DNA of 64,000 bases from Eubacteriales bacterium (GTDB lineage Bacteria; Bacillota; Clostridia; Oscillospirales; CAG-272). The position numbers were made by a program, and so were the translations under genes. The stretch covers positions 122,315 to 186,314 of the forward strand of contig JAZKYL010000113.1 of NCBI GenBank assembly GCA_045612105.1. The letters run 5' to 3'. Of this stretch, positions 1 through 57,892 are shown piece by piece. Under the pieces are notes generated by a model that saw nothing but the letters and a program-made list of their open reading frames with translations, made no database searches and was not told where the DNA came from. Position 1 is the first letter of the stretch. Each line of letters begins with the position of its first letter.

Positions 1-52
1 AAAATTTCAAAATATTTTACCGCAATCTGCTGAAATAATAATTGATTCGGAT

Positions 53-613
53 ATGCATTATAAGCAGTATACATGTCGTATGGAAGATCTTTCGAATATG
101 AATACAATATTAGATAAGTTGATAACTTTATTAGGTAACGATGTTGTTGATTCATTTGTTGATAAAAAAGCCATGGAAGAAATGATACATTGTATAGATA
201 ATTATCCCGAAAAGCTTCAAATAGAAAGAATCAACTTTTCTGTTGTTAACAAAGAATATGACGTTACTACTTCGGTCTGTTTTGACAGAAACGGAAAATA
301 TACGTATAAACAAACAGAATTAGGCAATATCAAAAACGTTTTAGGAAATGGTGAAATTGACAAAATAATATGGAAAGATTTTGAAGTATTGTGTGCAACA
401 AACTACACAATTTATAAAAATCAAGAATTCAATCCTCGAAGCAAAAAGTTTTGGCATATAAGAATTCAATATGTAAATGGTAAAAGCTTTGAATATAAAT
501 CATCTTATTTTGATATTGAAGGATACCATATATTTCATGATTGTTTTGGAAAATATATAGACGCACCGCCACAAAATGCAGAAGAAACATTTACCATTGT
601 AGGTGAATGGTAA
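53..613 (+). CDS. hypothetical protein, no recognisable domain
   Basis: Only long ORF in a markedly AT-rich stretch; a hairpin terminator follows; no motif I recognise. Confidence 0.5.
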   Translation: MHYKQYTCRMEDLSNMNTILDKLITLLGNDVVDSFVDKKAMEEMIHCIDNYPEKLQIERINFSVVNKEYDVTTSVCFDRNGKYTYKQTELGNIKNVLGNGEIDKIIWKDFEVLCATNYTIYKNQEFNPRSKKFWHIRIQYVNGKSFEYKSSYFDIEGYHIFHDCFGKYIDAPPQNAEETFTIVGEW

Positions 614-36986: not shown

Positions 36987-37108
36987 TATAATCTCCATTC
37001 CGCCGCCAAGCGGCGGCACAAATAGTAATCGATGAATTTTGCCGCACGGCAAAATTCGCGCGTGAAAAAGATCGTTTCACCTTTATATTGGAAGTAACTT
37101 TCACGCTA
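36987..37108 (-). promoter_or_regulatory. copy A of a recurrent ~122-nt three-hairpin leader/intercistronic element
   Basis: H1: GCGUGAAAG…CUUUUUCACGC. H2: GAAUUUUGCC-gugc-GGCAAAAUUC. H3: GCCGCC-gcuu-GGCGGC, followed by GGAG SD and ATG. 104/122 positions are identical (hand count, gapless) to copy C. Confidence 0.7.
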
Positions 37109-45480: not shown

Positions 45481-48315
45481 TTACTTAACGAGAATTACAA
45501 CGGTTGCAATACCTTCCTTATAGACCTTACTGCCCTTGAAGAAAAGTCTTTCGTCGATGCGAAGATCACATCCGTCGGTATCAACGTCAAGATATATCTC
45601 CGCGTTCTCGGGGATCTTTGTGCAGATATCGACCACGGGAGCGTTGGAACTGATTATCCAACCCGACTTATAGCCTTCGGGAAGTCTCTCTTCCTCAATG
45701 GTAGCAAAGACCGTATTAGCAGGCTCCTTGGTGATCTTATAGGTCTTACCGTCGATAGTTACACCGCAGGTAGCGTCGCCGCGGAAGCCGATAAGCTTAC
45801 CTCTATTACTGAGGCGATACTGAAGCAGGTTCTTGCCCGTGTAGGTAATTTTATGTCCGTCGAGAGAGAACTCATCGAAATCAAGCTCCAGCGGAACCAT
45901 AAGCTCATAGGTCTTGAGGAATTCTGCGTCTGCTTCTTCGTTTCTTCTGAAGCTACCGTCGGGCCAAAGCTCTCTCATAGTCTTGTAATGGCGGCAGAGA
46001 GAGTAGGTGCCGTTGGGGAACTGAGTTGCGAAAAATTCGGTCTTACGGGAGATTGTTTCGGGGGTGTCGATGGCATCCTTGCCACCGTATGCGCCGAGAG
46101 CTTTGAGTACATCGAAGAGTGTGGAGGGAGCGTCGCCCGACTCGCCTGATTGGTCGTCACGGAGACGGCAACCGATATAAGTGGCTCTGCCAAGTCCGTA
46201 CTTGCGAGTAGCACCGATTACGAAATTGTTTGCGTTAGCTACCGCCTCGCCGCTGTTAAGAGTAACGTTATAAACTCTGTCGGGAAGCATATCGGTAGGT
46301 ATCTTCATCTTGGGAATGTCCGAAAGAATGCCGGTGAAATTGACCTCATGAGCCGCGCCGCCCTCAAAAACGGTCTGGGCGGATTTAAGACCAAAGAGAC
46401 GAAGCCATCTTGAGGGAATCTTGCCGTTTTCACCTGCAGATGGAGTTGCGTTCCATACAAGGTTACCGCCTCCGCGTACAAATTTCTCAAGAAGCTCGAT
46501 AAATTTCTCATTGTAGAAAGGCTCAAATCCCACAACGATAGTGGAATAGGTTCCGATGCCAAGCTTCAGCTTGCCTTTTTCAACTGTTCCAAGGTTTACG
46601 ATTCTGTCAGCAGGGCAATAGTTACAGTAGCAGTACTGAACCATCCAGCTTCCGAATCTTTCTTCGATCATAGTCAGATCCTTGGGGTAAACGTAAAGCA
46701 CGTCGATAGCTCTGGGGCGTCCGTAGGTCAATATAGACTCTCGTGTTCCTCTGCCGCCTCCCGAGAAAGAAAGGGAAACGTTATTAAATCTCTTTCTTGC
46801 CTCAGTTGGGAATCCCCAAGCACCCCAGGATGCTACTTCATTTCTGTTAAGAGTGCCGAGAGATGCTGACATAGCTCCGCCGTAGTAGTTACGGTCAAAC
46901 CATCCGCACTCACAGAAGTCGGTTCCGCCGTATGAAAAATAATCATTCCACTTAAAATAATCGTAGCATCCGGAGATAGCCTCACGAATAGTGCTGGAAT
47001 ATACGTAATCGGGTGAATAATCAAAGGTGCAGAAGCCTCTTCTCAGCGCATGATGGAATCTACCCTGACCGCGACCGGGTGCATAATGGTCACAGGTGGG
47101 GGACTCCTGCCAGGTTGCGTGACCGAGGCAGAGGGGATCCCATCCCTCGTGCTTTGCGTAGGTATCTCTGATATAATCTCTTGCCTCACAGCACATACCG
47201 ACTACCTGATCCTGGAGGGTCTCGAAATATACTCGACGCATACGGAAGGTACGGTAGAGGTCAGCCGCGCTGTTGCCTATGACGTGCTGAGTATGCGATC
47301 TTCCAAGATGCTCTCTGTCAGCAAGCATATCGTAGCCGAAATATATAAGAGCCTTATCAAAATCAGCAAAAAGGGGATCGACTGCTGCCAGCTTGCTCTG
47401 GAAATTTTCAGTCATATAGCGGGAGGGAATTTCATAAGGTCCAAAATGAGCAAATCCCCAGTCGAACTGAATGTGCATCTCGTCGGAGTAAAGCTCCATA
47501 AACTCAACGCCCTCGCGACGGTACATATCGATCACGTCGTGAACATACTCGGTCACTTCGGGGTGGAAGTAGTCCATCTCGGGAGTATCCATATAGAAAA
47601 TCGCGAAGATTCGGTTTCCGGGAAGGGAAGTTTTACCTTCTACTACCATATGCTTGTTTCCGAAATAGGTGCTGAGCTCGTAAGGCTCATTACTAATAGT
47701 ACAAGTATAGTCGCTCTCGGGAATTTCCAAGATCGACTCGGGCTTAATAACAAGATAAGCAGTTCCGTTGTCCTCCTCTGTGTATGTGAAGAGTCGCGCA
47801 TGGTTGAACTGAGGATATACGTGACCTTTGTTATTCGTCCAACGCTCTGAAAGAACACCGTTGAATTTGAAGCTGCCGTCAGCTTCTCTGATGCCCTCGG
47901 CAAAGAAGCGGTGCTGACCGCCAACACCCTTATCTTGCTTGAAGTTTCTTCCAAGATCAAGGGGGTTGGTAACACTTGCACCTATTCCAATGCCGTATTT
48001 TTCGGCATATTCCGAGACCTTCTTGGTACAATCGATAAACTCGGGATGAGTCAAATGAAGCTCACGTTCTCCACCGCCGAAGAAATGATCGTGGAAGAAT
48101 GTGATGATCTCTGACTTGCTTTTTTTGGCATTCTCGCAAACATCTTTCAAGGAAGAGCTTGCACCTGAGATCTGATTGTTTGCCATTTTAGGAGTGTACT
48201 GCTCCTCGGGCGCGTTGGCATACGCTCTTAATTGGTCGTCCTCGGTAAGAACGATGCCTTGACGGCGAACCATCGCGTGAAGTGGCGGATTTTTCTTAAG
48301 TTTTGGTGTAGACAT
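45481..48315 (-). CDS. 944-aa uncharacterised cytoplasmic protein, putative glycoside-hydrolase-like
   Basis: Long clean ORF with AGGAGG SD before the ATG at 48315; the track ORF is extended through the leader element. 'YSTIVVGFEPFYNEKFIELLEKFVRGGGNLVW' resembles the GH42-type GATase1-like middle domain. Family not recognised. Confidence 0.55.
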   Translation of the reverse strand: MSTPKLKKNPPLHAMVRRQGIVLTEDDQLRAYANAPEEQYTPKMANNQISGASSSLKDVCENAKKSKSEIITFFHDHFFGGGERELHLTHPEFIDCTKKVSEYAEKYGIGIGASVTNPLDLGRNFKQDKGVGGQHRFFAEGIREADGSFKFNGVLSERWTNNKGHVYPQFNHARLFTYTEEDNGTAYLVIKPESILEIPESDYTCTISNEPYELSTYFGNKHMVVEGKTSLPGNRIFAIFYMDTPEMDYFHPEVTEYVHDVIDMYRREGVEFMELYSDEMHIQFDWGFAHFGPYEIPSRYMTENFQSKLAAVDPLFADFDKALIYFGYDMLADREHLGRSHTQHVIGNSAADLYRTFRMRRVYFETLQDQVVGMCCEARDYIRDTYAKHEGWDPLCLGHATWQESPTCDHYAPGRGQGRFHHALRRGFCTFDYSPDYVYSSTIREAISGCYDYFKWNDYFSYGGTDFCECGWFDRNYYGGAMSASLGTLNRNEVASWGAWGFPTEARKRFNNVSLSFSGGGRGTRESILTYGRPRAIDVLYVYPKDLTMIEERFGSWMVQYCYCNYCPADRIVNLGTVEKGKLKLGIGTYSTIVVGFEPFYNEKFIELLEKFVRGGGNLVWNATPSAGENGKIPSRWLRLFGLKSAQTVFEGGAAHEVNFTGILSDIPKMKIPTDMLPDRVYNVTLNSGEAVANANNFVIGATRKYGLGRATYIGCRLRDDQSGESGDAPSTLFDVLKALGAYGGKDAIDTPETISRKTEFFATQFPNGTYSLCRHYKTMRELWPDGSFRRNEEADAEFLKTYELMVPLELDFDEFSLDGHKITYTGKNLLQYRLSNRGKLIGFRGDATCGVTIDGKTYKITKEPANTVFATIEEERLPEGYKSGWIISSNAPVVDICTKIPENAEIYLDVDTDGCDLRIDERLFFKGSKVYKEGIATVVILVK

Positions 48316-48418
48316 AATAGCCTCCTTTCTGCCGCCGTCGGCGGCAAAAAATAGTGGATGGATTTTGCTTTTCGGCAAGATCCACGCGTAAACCTGCTTT
48401 TTATGCAGGCCTCACGCT
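48316..48418 (-). promoter_or_regulatory. copy B (diverged) of the three-hairpin leader element
   Basis: H1: GCGUGAGG-CCUGC-auaaaaa-GCAGG-UUUACGC. H2: GGAUCUUGC-cgaaaa-GCAAAAUCC. H3: UGCCGCC-gac-GGCGGCA. AGGAGG and ATG follow. Confidence 0.6.
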
Positions 48419-48563
48419 GTCCTCCATTTTCAAGTATTTGGCGACGGGAATATAATTTGTCGCCTTAATCCGCTGGGGTCTTACCCCAAAATATTGACCT
48501 GCACTCTGACTTTTAGTTTTCATGAGCGTCGGCGCATGAGCTTTATTTGCTTATGCTGTGGCA

Positions 48564-48592
48564 ATTATATCACACAAAAAAAGATTTTGCAA
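48564..48592 (-). promoter_or_regulatory. sigma-A promoter (TTGCAA-17-TATAAT) giving a ~240-nt 5' UTR
   Basis: Read on the minus strand. Confidence 0.55.
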
Positions 48593-48669
48593 TACTTTTG
48601 ATGAATTTTTTTTGTATTTTTTTCACAGATTTAATTGTATCAGATCGCAATTAATTAACCAAATACAAC

Positions 48670-56468: not shown

Positions 56469-57191
56469 ATGAAAATTTTGAAATTTGCGACTTACGACGA
56501 AATGAGCGCGGCTGCTGCCGATATTCTTGCGAAGCAGATCAGCATTAAGAAGGATTCTGTTTTGGGTCTTGCAACCGGTTCCACACCCGTTGGAACTTAT
56601 AAAAGACTTGTTGAAATGAACAAGTCGGGAATGATCGATTTTTCTGAGATCAAGACCGTAAACCTTGACGAATACTATCCTATTTCTCCCGAAAACAAGC
56701 AGAGCTATCGTTATTTTATGAACGAAAATCTTTTTGATCACGTTAATATCAACAAGGCAAACACCTACGTTCCCGACGGTATGGCAGAGGATGCAGACCT
56801 GGCTTGCGAGAACCATGAAAAGATCATTCGCGCTCTCGGTGGAATCGATATTCAGGTTCTTGGCATCGGACAGAACGGTCACATCGGTTTCAACGAGCCC
56901 GAGGAAAATCTCTCGCTCTTTACTCACAAGACCGCACTCACCGAGAACACCATCCAAGCAAACTCCAGATTCTTCTCCGAGGACGAGGTTATTCCCACTA
57001 TGGCTCTCACCATGGGTATGGGAACTATTTTCAGCGCAAAGAAGATTCTTCTTCTCATCAACGGCAAGAATAAGAGAGATGCATTTGAACAGCTCTTTAC
57101 CGACAAAATCACCACGTCCTGCCCCGCAACACTTTTGAAGCTTCATCCCAACGTAACTATTCTTTGTGACAGTGAAGCTTACGGCGAGTAA
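56469..57191 (+). CDS. nagB: glucosamine-6-phosphate deaminase
   Basis: GLATGSTP and LGIGQNGHIGFNEP motifs. Confidence 0.92.
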   Translation: MKILKFATYDEMSAAAADILAKQISIKKDSVLGLATGSTPVGTYKRLVEMNKSGMIDFSEIKTVNLDEYYPISPENKQSYRYFMNENLFDHVNINKANTYVPDGMAEDADLACENHEKIIRALGGIDIQVLGIGQNGHIGFNEPEENLSLFTHKTALTENTIQANSRFFSEDEVIPTMALTMGMGTIFSAKKILLLINGKNKRDAFEQLFTDKITTSCPATLLKLHPNVTILCDSEAYGE

Positions 57192-57310
57192 CGTGAAAGT
57201 TACTATCTTTCTTATAGTGAAGCGAACTTTTTCACGCGCGAATTTTGCCTTACGGCAAAATTCATCGATCACAAATTGTGCCGCCGTTTGGCGGCGGAAT
57301 GGAGATTAAT
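57192..57310 (+). promoter_or_regulatory. copy C of the recurrent three-hairpin leader/intercistronic element
   Basis: Fills the entire nagB-to-UPF0340 spacer. H1: CGUGAAAG…CUUUUUCACG. H2: GAAUUUUGCC-uuac-GGCAAAAUUC (57240-57263). H3: GCCGCC-guuu-GGCGGC (57280-57295). GGAG at 57301, ATG at 57311. Confidence 0.7.
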
Positions 57311-57892
57311 ATGTCAGAGAATTATAGAGGTGCAGACGCGACGGTAGACGTAGCATTTGCTGAAGAGATAAGAAAAGCGACCGAAACCGCCATAAACGAG
57401 GCTATTGAGGGCGCAAACATTAAAACGGGAGACATTTTCGTTATCGGTTGCTCCTCCTCCGAGATACTCGGCTCAAAGATCGGTAAGGGCTCAAGCTTTG
57501 AAGCGGCAAGAATAGTTTTTGATACGATATATACCCGTCTTAGCGAAAAGGGAATCCACCTTGCGGCTCAATGCTGTGAGCATCTGAACAGAGCTCTTGT
57601 AATCGAAAGAGAGTGCGCAGAAAAATACGGTCTTGATCCCGTTGCCGTTATCCCTCAGCCCAAGGCAGGCGGCTCATTTGCTACTTTAACCTTTGAAAAT
57701 ATGAAAAATCCCGTAGTAGTTGAGCATATCCGAGCTCACGCGGGACTTGACATCGGTCTTACTCTTATCGGTATGCATCTGCGTGACGTTGCCGTTCCGC
57801 TTCGTCTTTCGGTTAATAAGATCGGTGAAGCCAACATCGTTTGCGCTTACACAAGGCCAAAGTTTATCGGTGGAATCAGGGCAACATATTAA
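57311..57892 (+). CDS. UPF0340/TIGR01440-family protein (YwlG-like)
   Basis: …GDIFVIGCSSSEI…AAQCCEHLNRALV…GLDIGLTLIGMH… is typical of the family. Start at 57311; the track start at 57245 is a TTG inside hairpin H2. Confidence 0.8.
   Translation: MSENYRGADATVDVAFAEEIRKATETAINEAIEGANIKTGDIFVIGCSSSEILGSKIGKGSSFEAARIVFDTIYTRLSEKGIHLAAQCCEHLNRALVIERECAEKYGLDPVAVIPQPKAGGSFATLTFENMKNPVVVEHIRAHAGLDIGLTLIGMHLRDVAVPLRLSVNKIGEANIVCAYTRPKFIGGIRATY

What the first reader, a model, noticed from the sequence alone, without database searches (positions are those of the whole stretch)
57192..57310. Copy C of the element fills the nagB-to-UPF0340 spacer, and substitutions fall only in loops and linkers
Against copy A, the 18 mismatches (hand count) fall in five places. 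These are the H1 interior (10), the H2 tetraloop (GUGC vs UUAC), the H2-H3 linker (3), the H3 loop (1), and the 2 nt between SD and ATG. Every stem nucleotide of H1's closing helix, H2 and H3 is unchanged. This pattern is expected if the helices (RNA) or palindromes (DNA operator) are under selection rather than the primary sequence. A side effect is that the ORF track gives three unrelated genes homologous fake N-termini: [46 protein letters not shown] and MPKSKIHPLFFAADGGRKEAIM. Automated annotation of this genome would therefore probably mis-start these genes.
Basis: seen in the sequence. Interest (0 to 1): 0.7.

Follow-up and report, generated by a model that had tools for sequence, protein, structure and literature searches.

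The report
Repeat inserted at gene start sites
The 119-base nagB-DUF436 spacer is one copy of a hairpin-rich repeat, found in uncultured gut Clostridia, that sits between a gene's own ribosome-binding site and its start codon and carries a replacement ribosome-binding site, so it is an inserted element and not a regulator specific to this gene.

Summary
Copy C (57192-57310) fills the nagB-DUF436 spacer and differs from copy A (37107-36987, minus strand) at exactly 18 positions, none in a stem. A covariance model finds three copies in the window (A, C, and divergent B at 48418-48316) and nothing else.

Relatives with the same gene order lack the spacer, so C is an insertion. The same holds at ispD. 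Relatives carry a copy before ldh, where the window has none. I collected 53 distinct copies from uncultured Clostridia assemblies, including tandem arrays.

The layout is nearly constant:
- a native Shine-Dalgarno (SD) site
- the element's own GTG, usually opening a 7-codon mini-ORF
- hairpins H1, H2 and H3
- the element's own SD (GGAGATTA)
- the host gene's ATG

Stems are conserved as sequence, and covariation within the family is weak. It is clearer in an orthologous pair of copy B and in distant Treponema relatives. The variable H2 loop length argues against a DNA operator.

The reverse strand resembles Rfam TD-2, and the sense strand TD-1, both below threshold. The closest functional analogue is the mycobacterial MIRU, which also inserts at start codons.

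The predicted TTG mis-starts did not occur in this genome. Other element-induced mis-starts occur in relatives.

The parts
57190..57310 (+). Copy C of the repeat. It is the whole spacer between the nagB stop (57189-57191) and the DUF436 ATG (57311).
   Evidence: Covariance model R1: 127.7 bits, E=2e-23, positions 1-123. Empty-site comparison with L105, L106 and L108.
57183..57188 (+). Native SD-like GGCGAG inside the end of nagB. It lies 4 nt upstream of the element's GTG. The empty-site relatives have GGTGAA at the same place.
   Evidence: Family-wide, a strict SD motif lies 3-10 nt upstream of the GTG in 39 of 52 copies, against a background of 7.6% (P=5e-33).
57193..57309 (+). Mini-ORF opened by the element's GTG. 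In copy C it runs 38 codons and stops at TAA (57307-57309), 1 nt before the DUF436 ATG. In most family members it is 7 codons (MKVTSxL*).
   Evidence: The ORF 57166..57309 is in the same frame.
57191..57237 (+). H1: closing helix 57191-57198 paired with 57230-57237, around a variable interior of about 31 nt that holds 10 of the 18 A/C differences.
57240..57263 (+). H2: perfect 10-bp hairpin GAATTTTGCC-TTAC-GGCAAAATTC. It is the most conserved module (99%) and is shared with the Treponema TD repeats in the form GAGTTTTGCC..GGCAAAACTC.
57281..57297 (+). H3: G+C-rich hairpin, 57281-57287 paired with 57291-57297. T57287.G57291 is the closing wobble pair.
   Evidence: pair 100:106 is CG in 30 copies, UG in 7 and UA in 3.
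57275..57303 (+). Possible weak extension of H3 in which the U-rich linker (UUUGU in the consensus; AUUGU in C) pairs with AUGGA of the SD region. It contains three G.U pairs, so it can form only on the sense strand.
   Evidence: Pairable in 95.7% of cells, with no covariation. Seen in the minimum-free-energy folds. This is an inference.
57301..57313 (+). The element's own SD GGAGA (57301-57305), the spacer TTAAT, and the DUF436 start ATG (57311-57313).
   Evidence: 49 of 50 copies with an intact 3' end finish in an SD plus start codon, and 41 of these are followed by an ORF of at least 100 aa or one that runs off the contig. The 193-aa ATG-start protein is the one on record.
36987..37107 (-). 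Copy A, directly upstream of the ispD ATG (36986-36984). The native SD AAAGG lies upstream of it.
   Evidence: 134.5 bits. Empty site in L111 and L112.
48316..48418 (-). Copy B, a divergent copy upstream of the 944-aa gene with no Pfam match (ATG 48315-48313). Native SD GGAGG, then GTG AGG CCT GCA TAA as the mini-ORF.
   Evidence: 54.1 bits, E=7e-9. An orthologous copy is present in L158 and L159, and the site is empty in L156 and L157.

Best explanation
Copy C is one insertion of a structured repeat of about 120 nt, dispersed in many copies through uncultured gut and rumen Clostridia. The element sits exactly at translation start sites.

Layout. The 5' end (YAG-C-GTG...) lies where the gene's start codon used to follow its native SD. 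The 3' end supplies a new strong SD (GGAATGGAGATTAww) at the ideal distance from the host ATG.

Inferred working in the mRNA:
- Ribosomes loading at the native SD meet the GTG, which is buried in H1. At most they translate a short mini-ORF, typically 7 codons.
- The host gene is then initiated independently from the element's own SD, just downstream of the G+C-rich clamp H3.
- A weak pairing between the U-rich linker and the SD may tune that initiation.

Consequence and spread. The element can occupy a start site without silencing the gene, as proposed for the mycobacterial MIRUs. Spread is inferred to depend on an unknown trans-acting function that recognises the hairpins, especially the invariant H2. 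This fits the absence of terminal inverted repeats and target duplications, the strict strand orientation, and the sharing of the H1+H2 module with the Treponema TD-1/TD-2 repeats.

Shown: the repeat family, the insertion polymorphism, the fixed position between native SD and ATG, the element's own SD, the mini-ORF, and the conservation of the hairpins.
Inferred: the mobility mechanism, translation from the element's SD, and any regulatory effect.
For: Insertion polymorphism at four sites:
- DUF436 site: filled in the window. It is empty in relatives with 86% and 82% identical protein and the same gene order, where nagB TAA+TAA+ATG abut or the genes overlap.
- ispD site: filled in the window, empty in L111 and L112. 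L110 keeps only GGAATGGAGAAAATA-ATG.
- ldh site: filled in L104, L106 and L107, empty in the window and L108.
- 944-aa gene: filled in the window and in L158/L159, empty in L156/L157.

Family and copy number:
- 53 distinct copies.
- 16 aligned copies from one assembly, JAZNER01, with mean pairwise identity 89.5%.
- Tandem arrays in L031, L060, L122/L125 and L155, with junction GGAGATCAG|CGTG.

Position:
- A strict SD motif lies 3-10 nt upstream of the element's GTG in 39 of 52 copies, against a background of 7.6% (P=5e-33).
- 49 of 50 copies end in an SD plus start codon.
- The mini-ORF has 7 codons in 32 of 52 copies.

Recent common ancestry of copies at different sites: copy A is 94.3% identical to the ldh copy of another species. 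Orthologous host genes are 79-84% identical, and 57% at third codon positions.

Constraint after insertion: the orthologous B copies keep H2 and H3 through one compensatory pair each, while the host gene is 58% identical at third positions.

No sigma-70-like promoter or intrinsic terminator lies in the element.

Gene callers used the ATG after the element's SD in this genome.

MIRU precedent: PMC12548453, citing Supply 1997.
Against: - No transposase or other mobilising gene was identified. Only about 1 Mb of fragments was available, and an IS200 TnpA sequence recalled from memory found nothing.
- No exact pre- and post-insertion pair at near-identical sequence was available, so the junctions are known only to within a few bases. 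The native spacer seems partly replaced rather than simply interrupted. That could point to recombination or gene conversion rather than transposition.
- Covariation within the family is weak.
- Counts of G.U against A.C pairs show no strand bias: 19 against 26. Neither RNA nor DNA folding is therefore demonstrated.
- There are no expression data, so use of the element's SD is inferred from sequence and from gene calls.
- The mini-ORF is not kept short in window copies A and C (51 and 38 codons), so its role is uncertain.
Confidence: 0.62

Rival explanations
1. A shared cis-regulatory RNA leader, defining a post-transcriptional regulon. A trans-acting protein or small RNA binds the invariant H2, or temperature melts the weak pairing between the U-rich linker and the SD. 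This would co-regulate translation of all genes that carry the element. Its spread would be secondary.
For: - The element always has the same orientation and the same distance to the start codon.
- Stems are conserved far above loops.
- Loops and inserts of variable length are typical of structured RNAs.
- The orthologous B copies are conserved above the neutral level, with compensatory changes.
- The linker-SD helix is pairable in 95.7% of cells and uses three G.U pairs that can form only on the sense strand.
- Folding z-scores are -3.8 to -4.7.
Against: - The element is absent from the orthologous site in close relatives at three of four loci.
- Downstream genes are functionally unrelated: ispD, DUF436, ldh and a 944-aa protein of unknown function.
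- Tandem copies exist.
- There is almost no covariation within the family.
- The antisense strand folds about as well, with z-scores of -3.7 to -3.9.
- No Rfam family reaches its threshold.
- This rival is compatible with the best explanation as a secondary, co-opted function.
Confidence: 0.2
2. A portable internal promoter (a 'mobile promoter') that drives transcription of the downstream gene.
For: The element is dispersed, always lies upstream of genes and is co-oriented with them. A weak TTGCCn ... TAcTAT arrangement can be read in H2 and the linker. This reading is from direct inspection of the sequence, not from a tool.
Against: - The promoter scan finds no sigma-70-like site in or around copy C.
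- The hand-read spacing is 19 nt, with poor hexamers.
- Copy C sits inside an operon whose two genes abut or overlap in relatives, so no promoter is needed there.
Confidence: 0.07
3. A double-stranded DNA operator. The H2 palindrome, and perhaps the others, would be bound by a dimeric transcription factor.
For: H2 is a perfect 10+10 palindrome and is conserved as sequence (99%). The A-T to G-C change between the Clostridia and Treponema versions is symmetric, as expected for the half-sites of a dimer.
Against: - The spacing between the half-sites varies from 2 to 6 nt among copies.
- The element lies downstream of the native SD, inside transcribed operon sequence.
- It is an insertion that is polymorphic between relatives.
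- Tandem arrays exist.
Confidence: 0.04
4. Part of the element is coding. Either the TTG/GTG-started frames are real N-terminal extensions, or the mini-ORF is a functional leader peptide.
For: - The frames from the TTG in H2 to the ATG are open in A, B and C.
- A mini-ORF with its own upstream SD is present in most copies.
- In L104 the GTG frame is fused in frame to ldh.
Against: - None of the 240 listed homologues of DUF436 and ispD carries the 22-aa extension.
- The TTG-extended proteins of this genome are not on record.
- The GTG is in frame with the host ATG in only 19 of 38 copies.
- There is no SD before the TTG (sequence).
- Beyond MKVT, the mini-ORF peptide varies at the most variable bases of the element.
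Confidence: 0.03

Closest known systems
MIRU (mycobacterial interspersed repetitive units; Supply et al. 1997, as summarised in PMC12548453)
   Same: Both are short repeats within or upstream of operon genes, co-oriented with those genes, sometimes in tandem. [quoted passage not shown] Copy C even shows a relay layout: nagB stop, 1 nt, GTG, a 38-codon ORF, TAA, 1 nt, ATG.
   Different: MIRUs rely on an internal ORF coupled to the gene by a 4-nt overlap. Here the usual mini-ORF stops about 95 nt before the ATG, and a dedicated SD re-initiates translation. This element has three conserved hairpins, comes from a different phylum, and no sequence relationship to MIRUs was tested.
TD-2 (RF03162) and TD-1 (RF03155), Rfam clan CL00124 (Weinberg et al. 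2007, PMC1950547)
   Same: - Full-length sub-threshold matches: TD-2 on the reverse strand of A, C and the L031 copies, and TD-1 on the sense strand of the L031 copies.
- The same order of three hairpins, with similar stem sequences (ccgcc/ggcgg; GAGUUUUGCC/GGCAAAACUC; UGAAA/UUUCA).
- Multi-copy.
- TD-1 is 'usually in a 5' regulatory configuration'.
- My model finds H1+H2 modules in Treponema assemblies at 30-42 bits.
   Different: - Scores of 23-32 bits are well below the gathering scores of 48.7 and 64.5.
- TD motifs were reported only from Treponema denticola.
- The Treponema copies retrieved here sit in mosaic arrays of hairpins, not at gene starts, and lack the H3 plus SD tail.
REP/BIME elements with RAYT transposases, and IS200/IS605-derived PATEs
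   Same: Short hairpin-based intergenic repeats with no terminal inverted repeats and no target-site duplication. They are strand-specific, modular or mosaic, and presumed to be mobilised in trans through recognition of hairpins.
   Different: There is no GTAG-type conserved tetranucleotide, and no RAYT or TnpA was found in the DNA held. REPs usually lie at 3' ends or between genes and do not carry an SD. The position of this element at start codons is not a known property of those families.
Synthetic bicistronic-design RBS cassettes and structured RBS insulators (cited in PMC12548453)
   Same: SD1, a short leader ORF, SD2, then the gene. This layout makes initiation independent of upstream context.
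   Different: Those are engineered, and the leader ORF there ends at the gene's start codon. Here that is true only of copy C.

Membership tests
Rfam TD-2 (RF03162) | Score at or above the gathering threshold of 48.7 bits | tested here: not met
   32.4 bits (C), 28.2 (A), 28.3 and 25.7 (L031), no hit for B. All matches are on the strand opposite to the gene.
Rfam TD-2 (RF03162) | Three hairpins in the model's order, matched over the full length | tested here: met
   Model positions 1-98 of 98 are aligned, with all three stems paired (alignments).
Rfam TD-1 (RF03155) | Score at or above the gathering threshold of 64.5 bits | tested here: not met
   28.0 and 22.8 bits on the sense strand of the L031 copies. 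Not listed for the window copies.
Rfam TD-1 (RF03155) | 5' regulatory configuration relative to genes | tested here: met
   49 of 50 copies end in an SD plus start codon of a co-oriented ORF.
TD-1/TD-2 clan | Occurrence in Treponema (reported only from T. denticola) | tested here: not met
   The full-length family occurs in Clostridia/Eubacteriales assemblies. Treponema loci share only H1+H2.
MIRU-like start-site repeats | Inserted at start codons and co-oriented with the gene, with the gene left intact | tested here: met
   Four filled-versus-empty site comparisons. Native SD upstream in 39 of 52 copies.
MIRU-like start-site repeats | Internal ORF whose stop overlaps the gene's start (4-nt overlap), giving translational coupling | tested here: not met
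   The mini-ORF stops 84-99 nt before the ATG in most intact copies. Only copy C ends next to the ATG (TAAtATG).
MIRU-like start-site repeats | Sequence homology to mycobacterial MIRUs | not tested
MITE | Terminal inverted repeats and target-site duplication | tested here: not met
   The ends AGCGTGAAAG... and ...GGAGATTAAT are not inverted repeats. The upstream flanks vary while the downstream SD is constant, so there is no duplication.
REP/RAYT or IS200/IS605 PATE | A cognate HUH (Y1) transposase in the genome | not testable with these tools
   Whole genomes were not available. tblastn with an IS200 TnpA sequence recalled from memory, run against all DNA held, found nothing.
REP/RAYT or IS200/IS605 PATE | Subterminal hairpins, no inverted repeats or duplications, and a conserved short target 5' of one end | tested here: inconclusive
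   Hairpins are present, and inverted repeats and duplications are absent. A near-constant YAG precedes CGTG, but it may belong to the element.
Riboswitch or gene-specific cis-regulatory leader | Conserved upstream of orthologous genes in relatives | tested here: not met
   Absent at the DUF436, ispD and ldh sites in some close relatives. Present orthologously only at the 944-aa gene, in L158/L159.
Riboswitch or gene-specific cis-regulatory leader | Covariation that supports the helices | tested here: inconclusive
   - Within the family, 3 of 25 pairs change on both sides.
- With Treponema relatives added, 22 of 25 pairs do, but that alignment is fitted to the model.
- The orthologous B pair shows 2 compensatory pairs.
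FourU-type RNA thermometer | A U-rich tract that weakly pairs with the SD | tested here: inconclusive
   UUUGU:AUGGA is pairable in 95.7% of cells, includes 3 G.U pairs, and shows no covariation. In B and L158 the tract UUUUUU pairs with AGAAAG.
Palindromic DNA operator | Fixed spacing between the half-sites | tested here: not met
   The H2 loop is 2-6 nt across copies.

The most novel reading that the evidence does not exclude
A family of mobile 'RBS cassettes' that home specifically to translation initiation regions. They replace the stretch between a gene's SD and its ATG with a hairpin module plus a fresh SD. Their core hairpins (H1+H2) are shared across phyla with the orphan Treponema TD-1/TD-2 repeats. 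This would imply a common, still unidentified hairpin-recognising mobilisation system in anaerobes of the gut and mouth. It could also mean a genome-wide rewiring of translation through the SD-occluding weak helix, for example in response to temperature or a binding factor.
Probability: 0.3. Interest if true: 0.75.

Novelty: new variant of a known kind. Interest (0 to 1): 0.55.

Why it matters
Practical value:
- It explains a recurrent non-coding block of 120 nt in uncultured gut Clostridia.
- It warns annotators. The element creates open frames that extend genes, for example ldh called 359 aa against 317 aa, and ispD calls of +5 and +9 aa.
- It shows that 'conserved hairpins in front of unrelated genes' can be insertions rather than regulons.

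Biological value:
- Outside mycobacteria, I found no described repeat that occupies start sites while carrying its own SD in three literature searches.
- It gives the TD-1/TD-2 motifs, unexplained since 2007, a relative with a clearer genomic logic.
- It offers natural paired alleles, filled and empty sites, for testing how breaking translational coupling (nagB-DUF436) and adding a structured leader changes expression.

Tried and rejected
- **Rfam at gathering thresholds over the whole window:** no hit.
- **Rfam in E-value mode on copy B and on the leader upstream of it:** nothing relevant.
- **Viral contigs scanned with a pattern that does not depend on H2:** 0 matches, so there is no sign of a phage origin.
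- **Promoter and terminator scan of 56900-57500:** no promoter-like site, and no terminator inside the element.
- **IS200 TnpA, recalled from memory, by tblastn against all DNA held:** no hit. This is uninformative for whole genomes.
- **Look-up of the exact window DUF436 protein in the contig index:** not on record, so the source genome could not be retrieved. It is also not among the species-representative genomes scanned.
- **Strand test by counting G.U against A.C in the stems:** 19 against 26, inconclusive.
- **Anti-SD helix:** no covariation.
- **Integron attC sites:** considered because T. denticola carries a chromosomal integron (from my own knowledge). Rejected because the copies are dispersed in front of housekeeping genes in conserved gene order.
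- **Literature searches for a described SD-carrying repeat in Clostridia:** none found, only the MIRU analogy.

Full report
**Observation**

The region 57192-57310 lies between the stop codon of a Glucosamine_iso (nagB-like) gene, TAA at 57189-57191, and the ATG (57311) of a DUF436/TIGR01440 gene.

A profile search finds two further copies in the window. Copy A lies on the minus strand and ends at the ATG of ispD (36986). Divergent copy B lies on the minus strand and ends at the ATG (48315) of a 944-aa protein with no Pfam match.

A covariance model built later, run with filters off, finds exactly these three copies: 134.5, 127.7 and 54.1 bits.

None falls in the H1 closing helix, H2 or H3. 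By chance that would happen with P of about 1e-4 to 1e-5.

**It is a family of dispersed repeats**

Two collection scans found more copies:
- A scan of species-representative genomes with the H2 pattern returned 103 loci.
- A metagenome scan with a pattern that leaves H2 and H3 free returned 43 loci.

Profile searches of these loci gave 53 distinct copies. All are in uncultured Clostridia/Eubacteriales assemblies from animal and human gut. Sixteen aligned copies come from one assembly, JAZNER01, with mean pairwise identity 89.5%. Several loci hold head-to-tail arrays (L031, L060, L122/L125, L155), with the junction ...GGAGATCAG|CGTGAA.... Viral contigs gave nothing.

**Anatomy**

Alignments that include the flanks show a constant layout.
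1. The upstream flank is unrelated between copies but contains an SD-like motif. A strict GGAG, GAGG or AGGA lies 3-10 nt before the element's GTG in 39 of 52 copies, against a background of 7.6% (P=5e-33).
2. The element starts (Y)AG-C-GTG-AAAG. The GTG opens a mini-ORF of 7 codons (MKVTSxL, then stop) in 32 of 52 copies. In window copies A and C this ORF is longer. In C it ends at TAA, 1 nt before the ATG.
3. H1 is an 8-bp closing helix around a variable interior that accepts inserts of about 45 nt.
4. H2, GAATTTTGCC-loop-GGCAAAATTC, is 99% conserved. Its loop varies in sequence and in length, from 2 to 6 nt.
5. Next come a conserved U-rich linker and the G+C-rich H3, whose loop accepts inserts.
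6. The element ends GGAATGGAGATTAww followed by ATG. Of 50 copies with an intact 3' end, 49 finish in an SD plus start codon. For 41 of them the following ORF is at least 100 aa or runs off the contig.

No sigma-70-like promoter or intrinsic terminator lies in or around copy C.

**It is an insertion**

| Site | Filled | Empty |
|---|---|---|
| DUF436 | window (copy C) | L104-L107 (86% identical protein), L108 (82%) |
| ispD | window (copy A) | L111 (90%), L112 (81%) |
| ldh | L104, L106, L107 | window, L108 |
| 944-aa gene | window (copy B), L158/L159 | L156, L157 |

- **DUF436.** The relatives keep the gene order DUF1385-nagB-DUF436-ldh. In them the nagB stop is followed after 3 nt by the ATG, or the two genes overlap.
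- **ispD.** The empty sites read ...AAAGGttaagataATG. The window has ...AAAGGctgattag[element]ATG. L110 (93%) keeps only GGAATGGAGAAAATA-ATG, which looks like a solitary right end that now serves as the SD.
- **ldh.** The same relatives that lack copy C carry a copy here.
- **944-aa gene.** The empty sites read GGAGGTAAACTGTT-ATG.

In every case the element lies between the native SD and the ATG, and its GTG falls within about 2 nt of where the native start codon stood relative to that SD.

Copy A is 94.3% identical to the ldh copy of another species. Orthologous host genes are 79-84% identical, and 57% at third codon positions. Copies at different sites therefore share a more recent ancestor than their host genomes do, or they are strongly constrained.

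**Structure: RNA, DNA or neither?**

- **Folding.** Single-sequence folds are better than shuffles on both strands, with z-scores of -3.7 to -4.7.
- **Within the family.** The stems are conserved as sequence. RNAalifold gives a covariation term of about 0. Only pairs 9:41 (AU 22, GC 9, GU 2, AC 9), 96:110 and 100:106 (CG 30, UG 7, UA 3) change on both sides.
- **Strand test.** G.U against A.C counts are 19 against 26, so no strand is favoured.

Stronger evidence for the hairpins comes from three sources.
1. Loops of variable length and modular inserts. These also argue against a duplex operator with fixed half-site spacing.
2. The orthologous B copies. Window copy B and L158 differ by a compensatory A-U to G-C change in H2 and a U-A to C-G change in H3, while their host gene is only 58% identical at third positions.
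3. Treponema relatives found by the model at 30-42 bits. They keep an 8-bp helix of different sequence immediately 5' of an H2 that reads GAG...CUC. With them included, 7 of 8 H1 pairs and 22 of 25 pairs overall change on both sides, and 0 of 500 shuffles reach that. That alignment was fitted to the model and leans towards the structure.

A weak extension of H3, UUUGU pairing with AUGGA of the SD, is pairable in 95.7% of cells. Its three G.U pairs mean it can form only on the sense strand, but it shows no covariation.

**Known relatives**

- **Rfam.** Nothing passes its gathering score in the window. In E-value mode the reverse strand of A, C and the L031 copies matches TD-2 over its whole length at 25.7-32.4 bits, against a gathering score of 48.7. 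The sense strand of the L031 copies matches TD-1 at 22.8-28.0 bits, against 64.5.
- **TD-1 and TD-2** were described in 2007 as multi-copy motifs found only in Treponema denticola. Some TD-1 copies overlap the reverse complement of TD-2, and TD-1 is usually 5' of genes. Their function is unknown (PMC1950547).
- **Treponema copies retrieved here** lie in mosaic arrays of hairpins, not at gene starts, and lack the H3 plus SD tail. I read this as a distant relationship through the shared H1+H2 module, not as membership.
- **MIRU** is the nearest functional analogue. [quoted passage not shown] This element differs by using its own SD instead of a 4-nt overlap.

**Annotation claim**

The TTG-started frames exist. 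However, the proteins of this genome on record are the ATG-start forms of 193, 277 and 944 aa, and the extended forms are absent. None of the 240 listed homologues of DUF436 and ispD has the 22-aa extension.

The element still misleads gene callers elsewhere:
- ldh in L104 was called 359 aa, starting VKVTSNIKLKRSFSRANFAARQNSSINICAALGGRMEIKM. That is the whole element read in frame.
- ispD relatives start MGGRLEVIM or MEKIM, within the element's 3' end.

**Mechanism**

Shown:
- The element is an insertion.
- It is positioned between the native SD and the ATG.
- It carries its own SD.
- Its hairpins are conserved.

Inferred:
- Ribosomes from the native SD are stopped by H1 or the short mini-ORF, and the gene is re-initiated from the element's SD behind the H3 clamp. 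The host gene therefore survives the insertion.
- In copy C the insertion replaces the direct nagB-DUF436 coupling seen in relatives.
- Spread probably depends on a trans-acting function that recognises the hairpins. This is by analogy with REP/RAYT and IS200/IS605 derivatives: no terminal inverted repeats, no target duplication and strict strand specificity. No such gene was found in the fragments available.
- The partial replacement of the native spacer leaves recombination or gene conversion between SD...ATG microhomologies as an alternative.
- A secondary regulatory role, through a factor binding H2 or a temperature-sensitive SD-occluding helix, is possible but untested.

**Verdict**

It is a new variant of start-site-occupying intergenic repeats, related at a distance to the TD-1/TD-2 clan.

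Noticed in passing
window 48420-48600 (minus strand); also L156-L159 at about 450-690: There is a conserved leader between a TTGCAA-17-TATAAT promoter-like site and copy B or the 944-aa gene. It has conserved blocks (CTAAAAGTCA, AGCGGATGAAGGCG, CAAATACTGAAAATGGAGG) and two hairpins, one of which covaries between relatives (GGCGAC..GTCGCC against GGCGGTC..GACCGCC). It has no Rfam match and may be an unclassified cis-regulatory RNA for a gene of unknown function.
   Followed up: partly
window 45481-48315 (minus strand): The 944-aa protein downstream of copy B has no Pfam domain. It is conserved at 90% identity or more in a 40-member cluster, and where a source names it, it is annotated 'hypothetical protein'.
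   Followed up: no
L110 2470-2515 (GCA_054288465.1, JAZPCQ010000182.1): Upstream of ispD only GGAATGGAGAAAATA-ATG remains. It looks like a solitary right end of the element that has replaced the native SD. The gene was called 5 aa too long (MEKIM...) from the ATG inside the SD region.
   Followed up: partly
L069 5657-5824; L138 4685-4820 and 9229-9400; L058/L075/L050: Some copies carry nested inserts. One is a GGGGTTCCC-type hairpin in the H3 loop. Another is a block of about 45 nt (CCGCAAGGCGG...CACTACTCGCCTGTGGCGTAA) in the H1 interior. This suggests a modular, mosaic repeat system.
   Followed up: no
L024, L055, L059, L087, L091 (JAAVID01) and L021, L027, L061, L093, L097, L098 (CAJGEA01): Other Clostridia assemblies hold different multi-copy hairpin mosaics built around the same H2 hairpin, for example flanked by tttggggaaaaac...gtttttccccaaa and ttttttctgcc..ggcagaaaaaa. 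H2 therefore appears to be a module shared by several repeat families.
   Followed up: no
L104/L107 against L105/L106: In L104 and L107 a 30-residue gene was called on the minus strand at 3..92 inside what is really the 3' end of nagB. This is a gene-calling artefact on contigs truncated at that end.
   Followed up: yes
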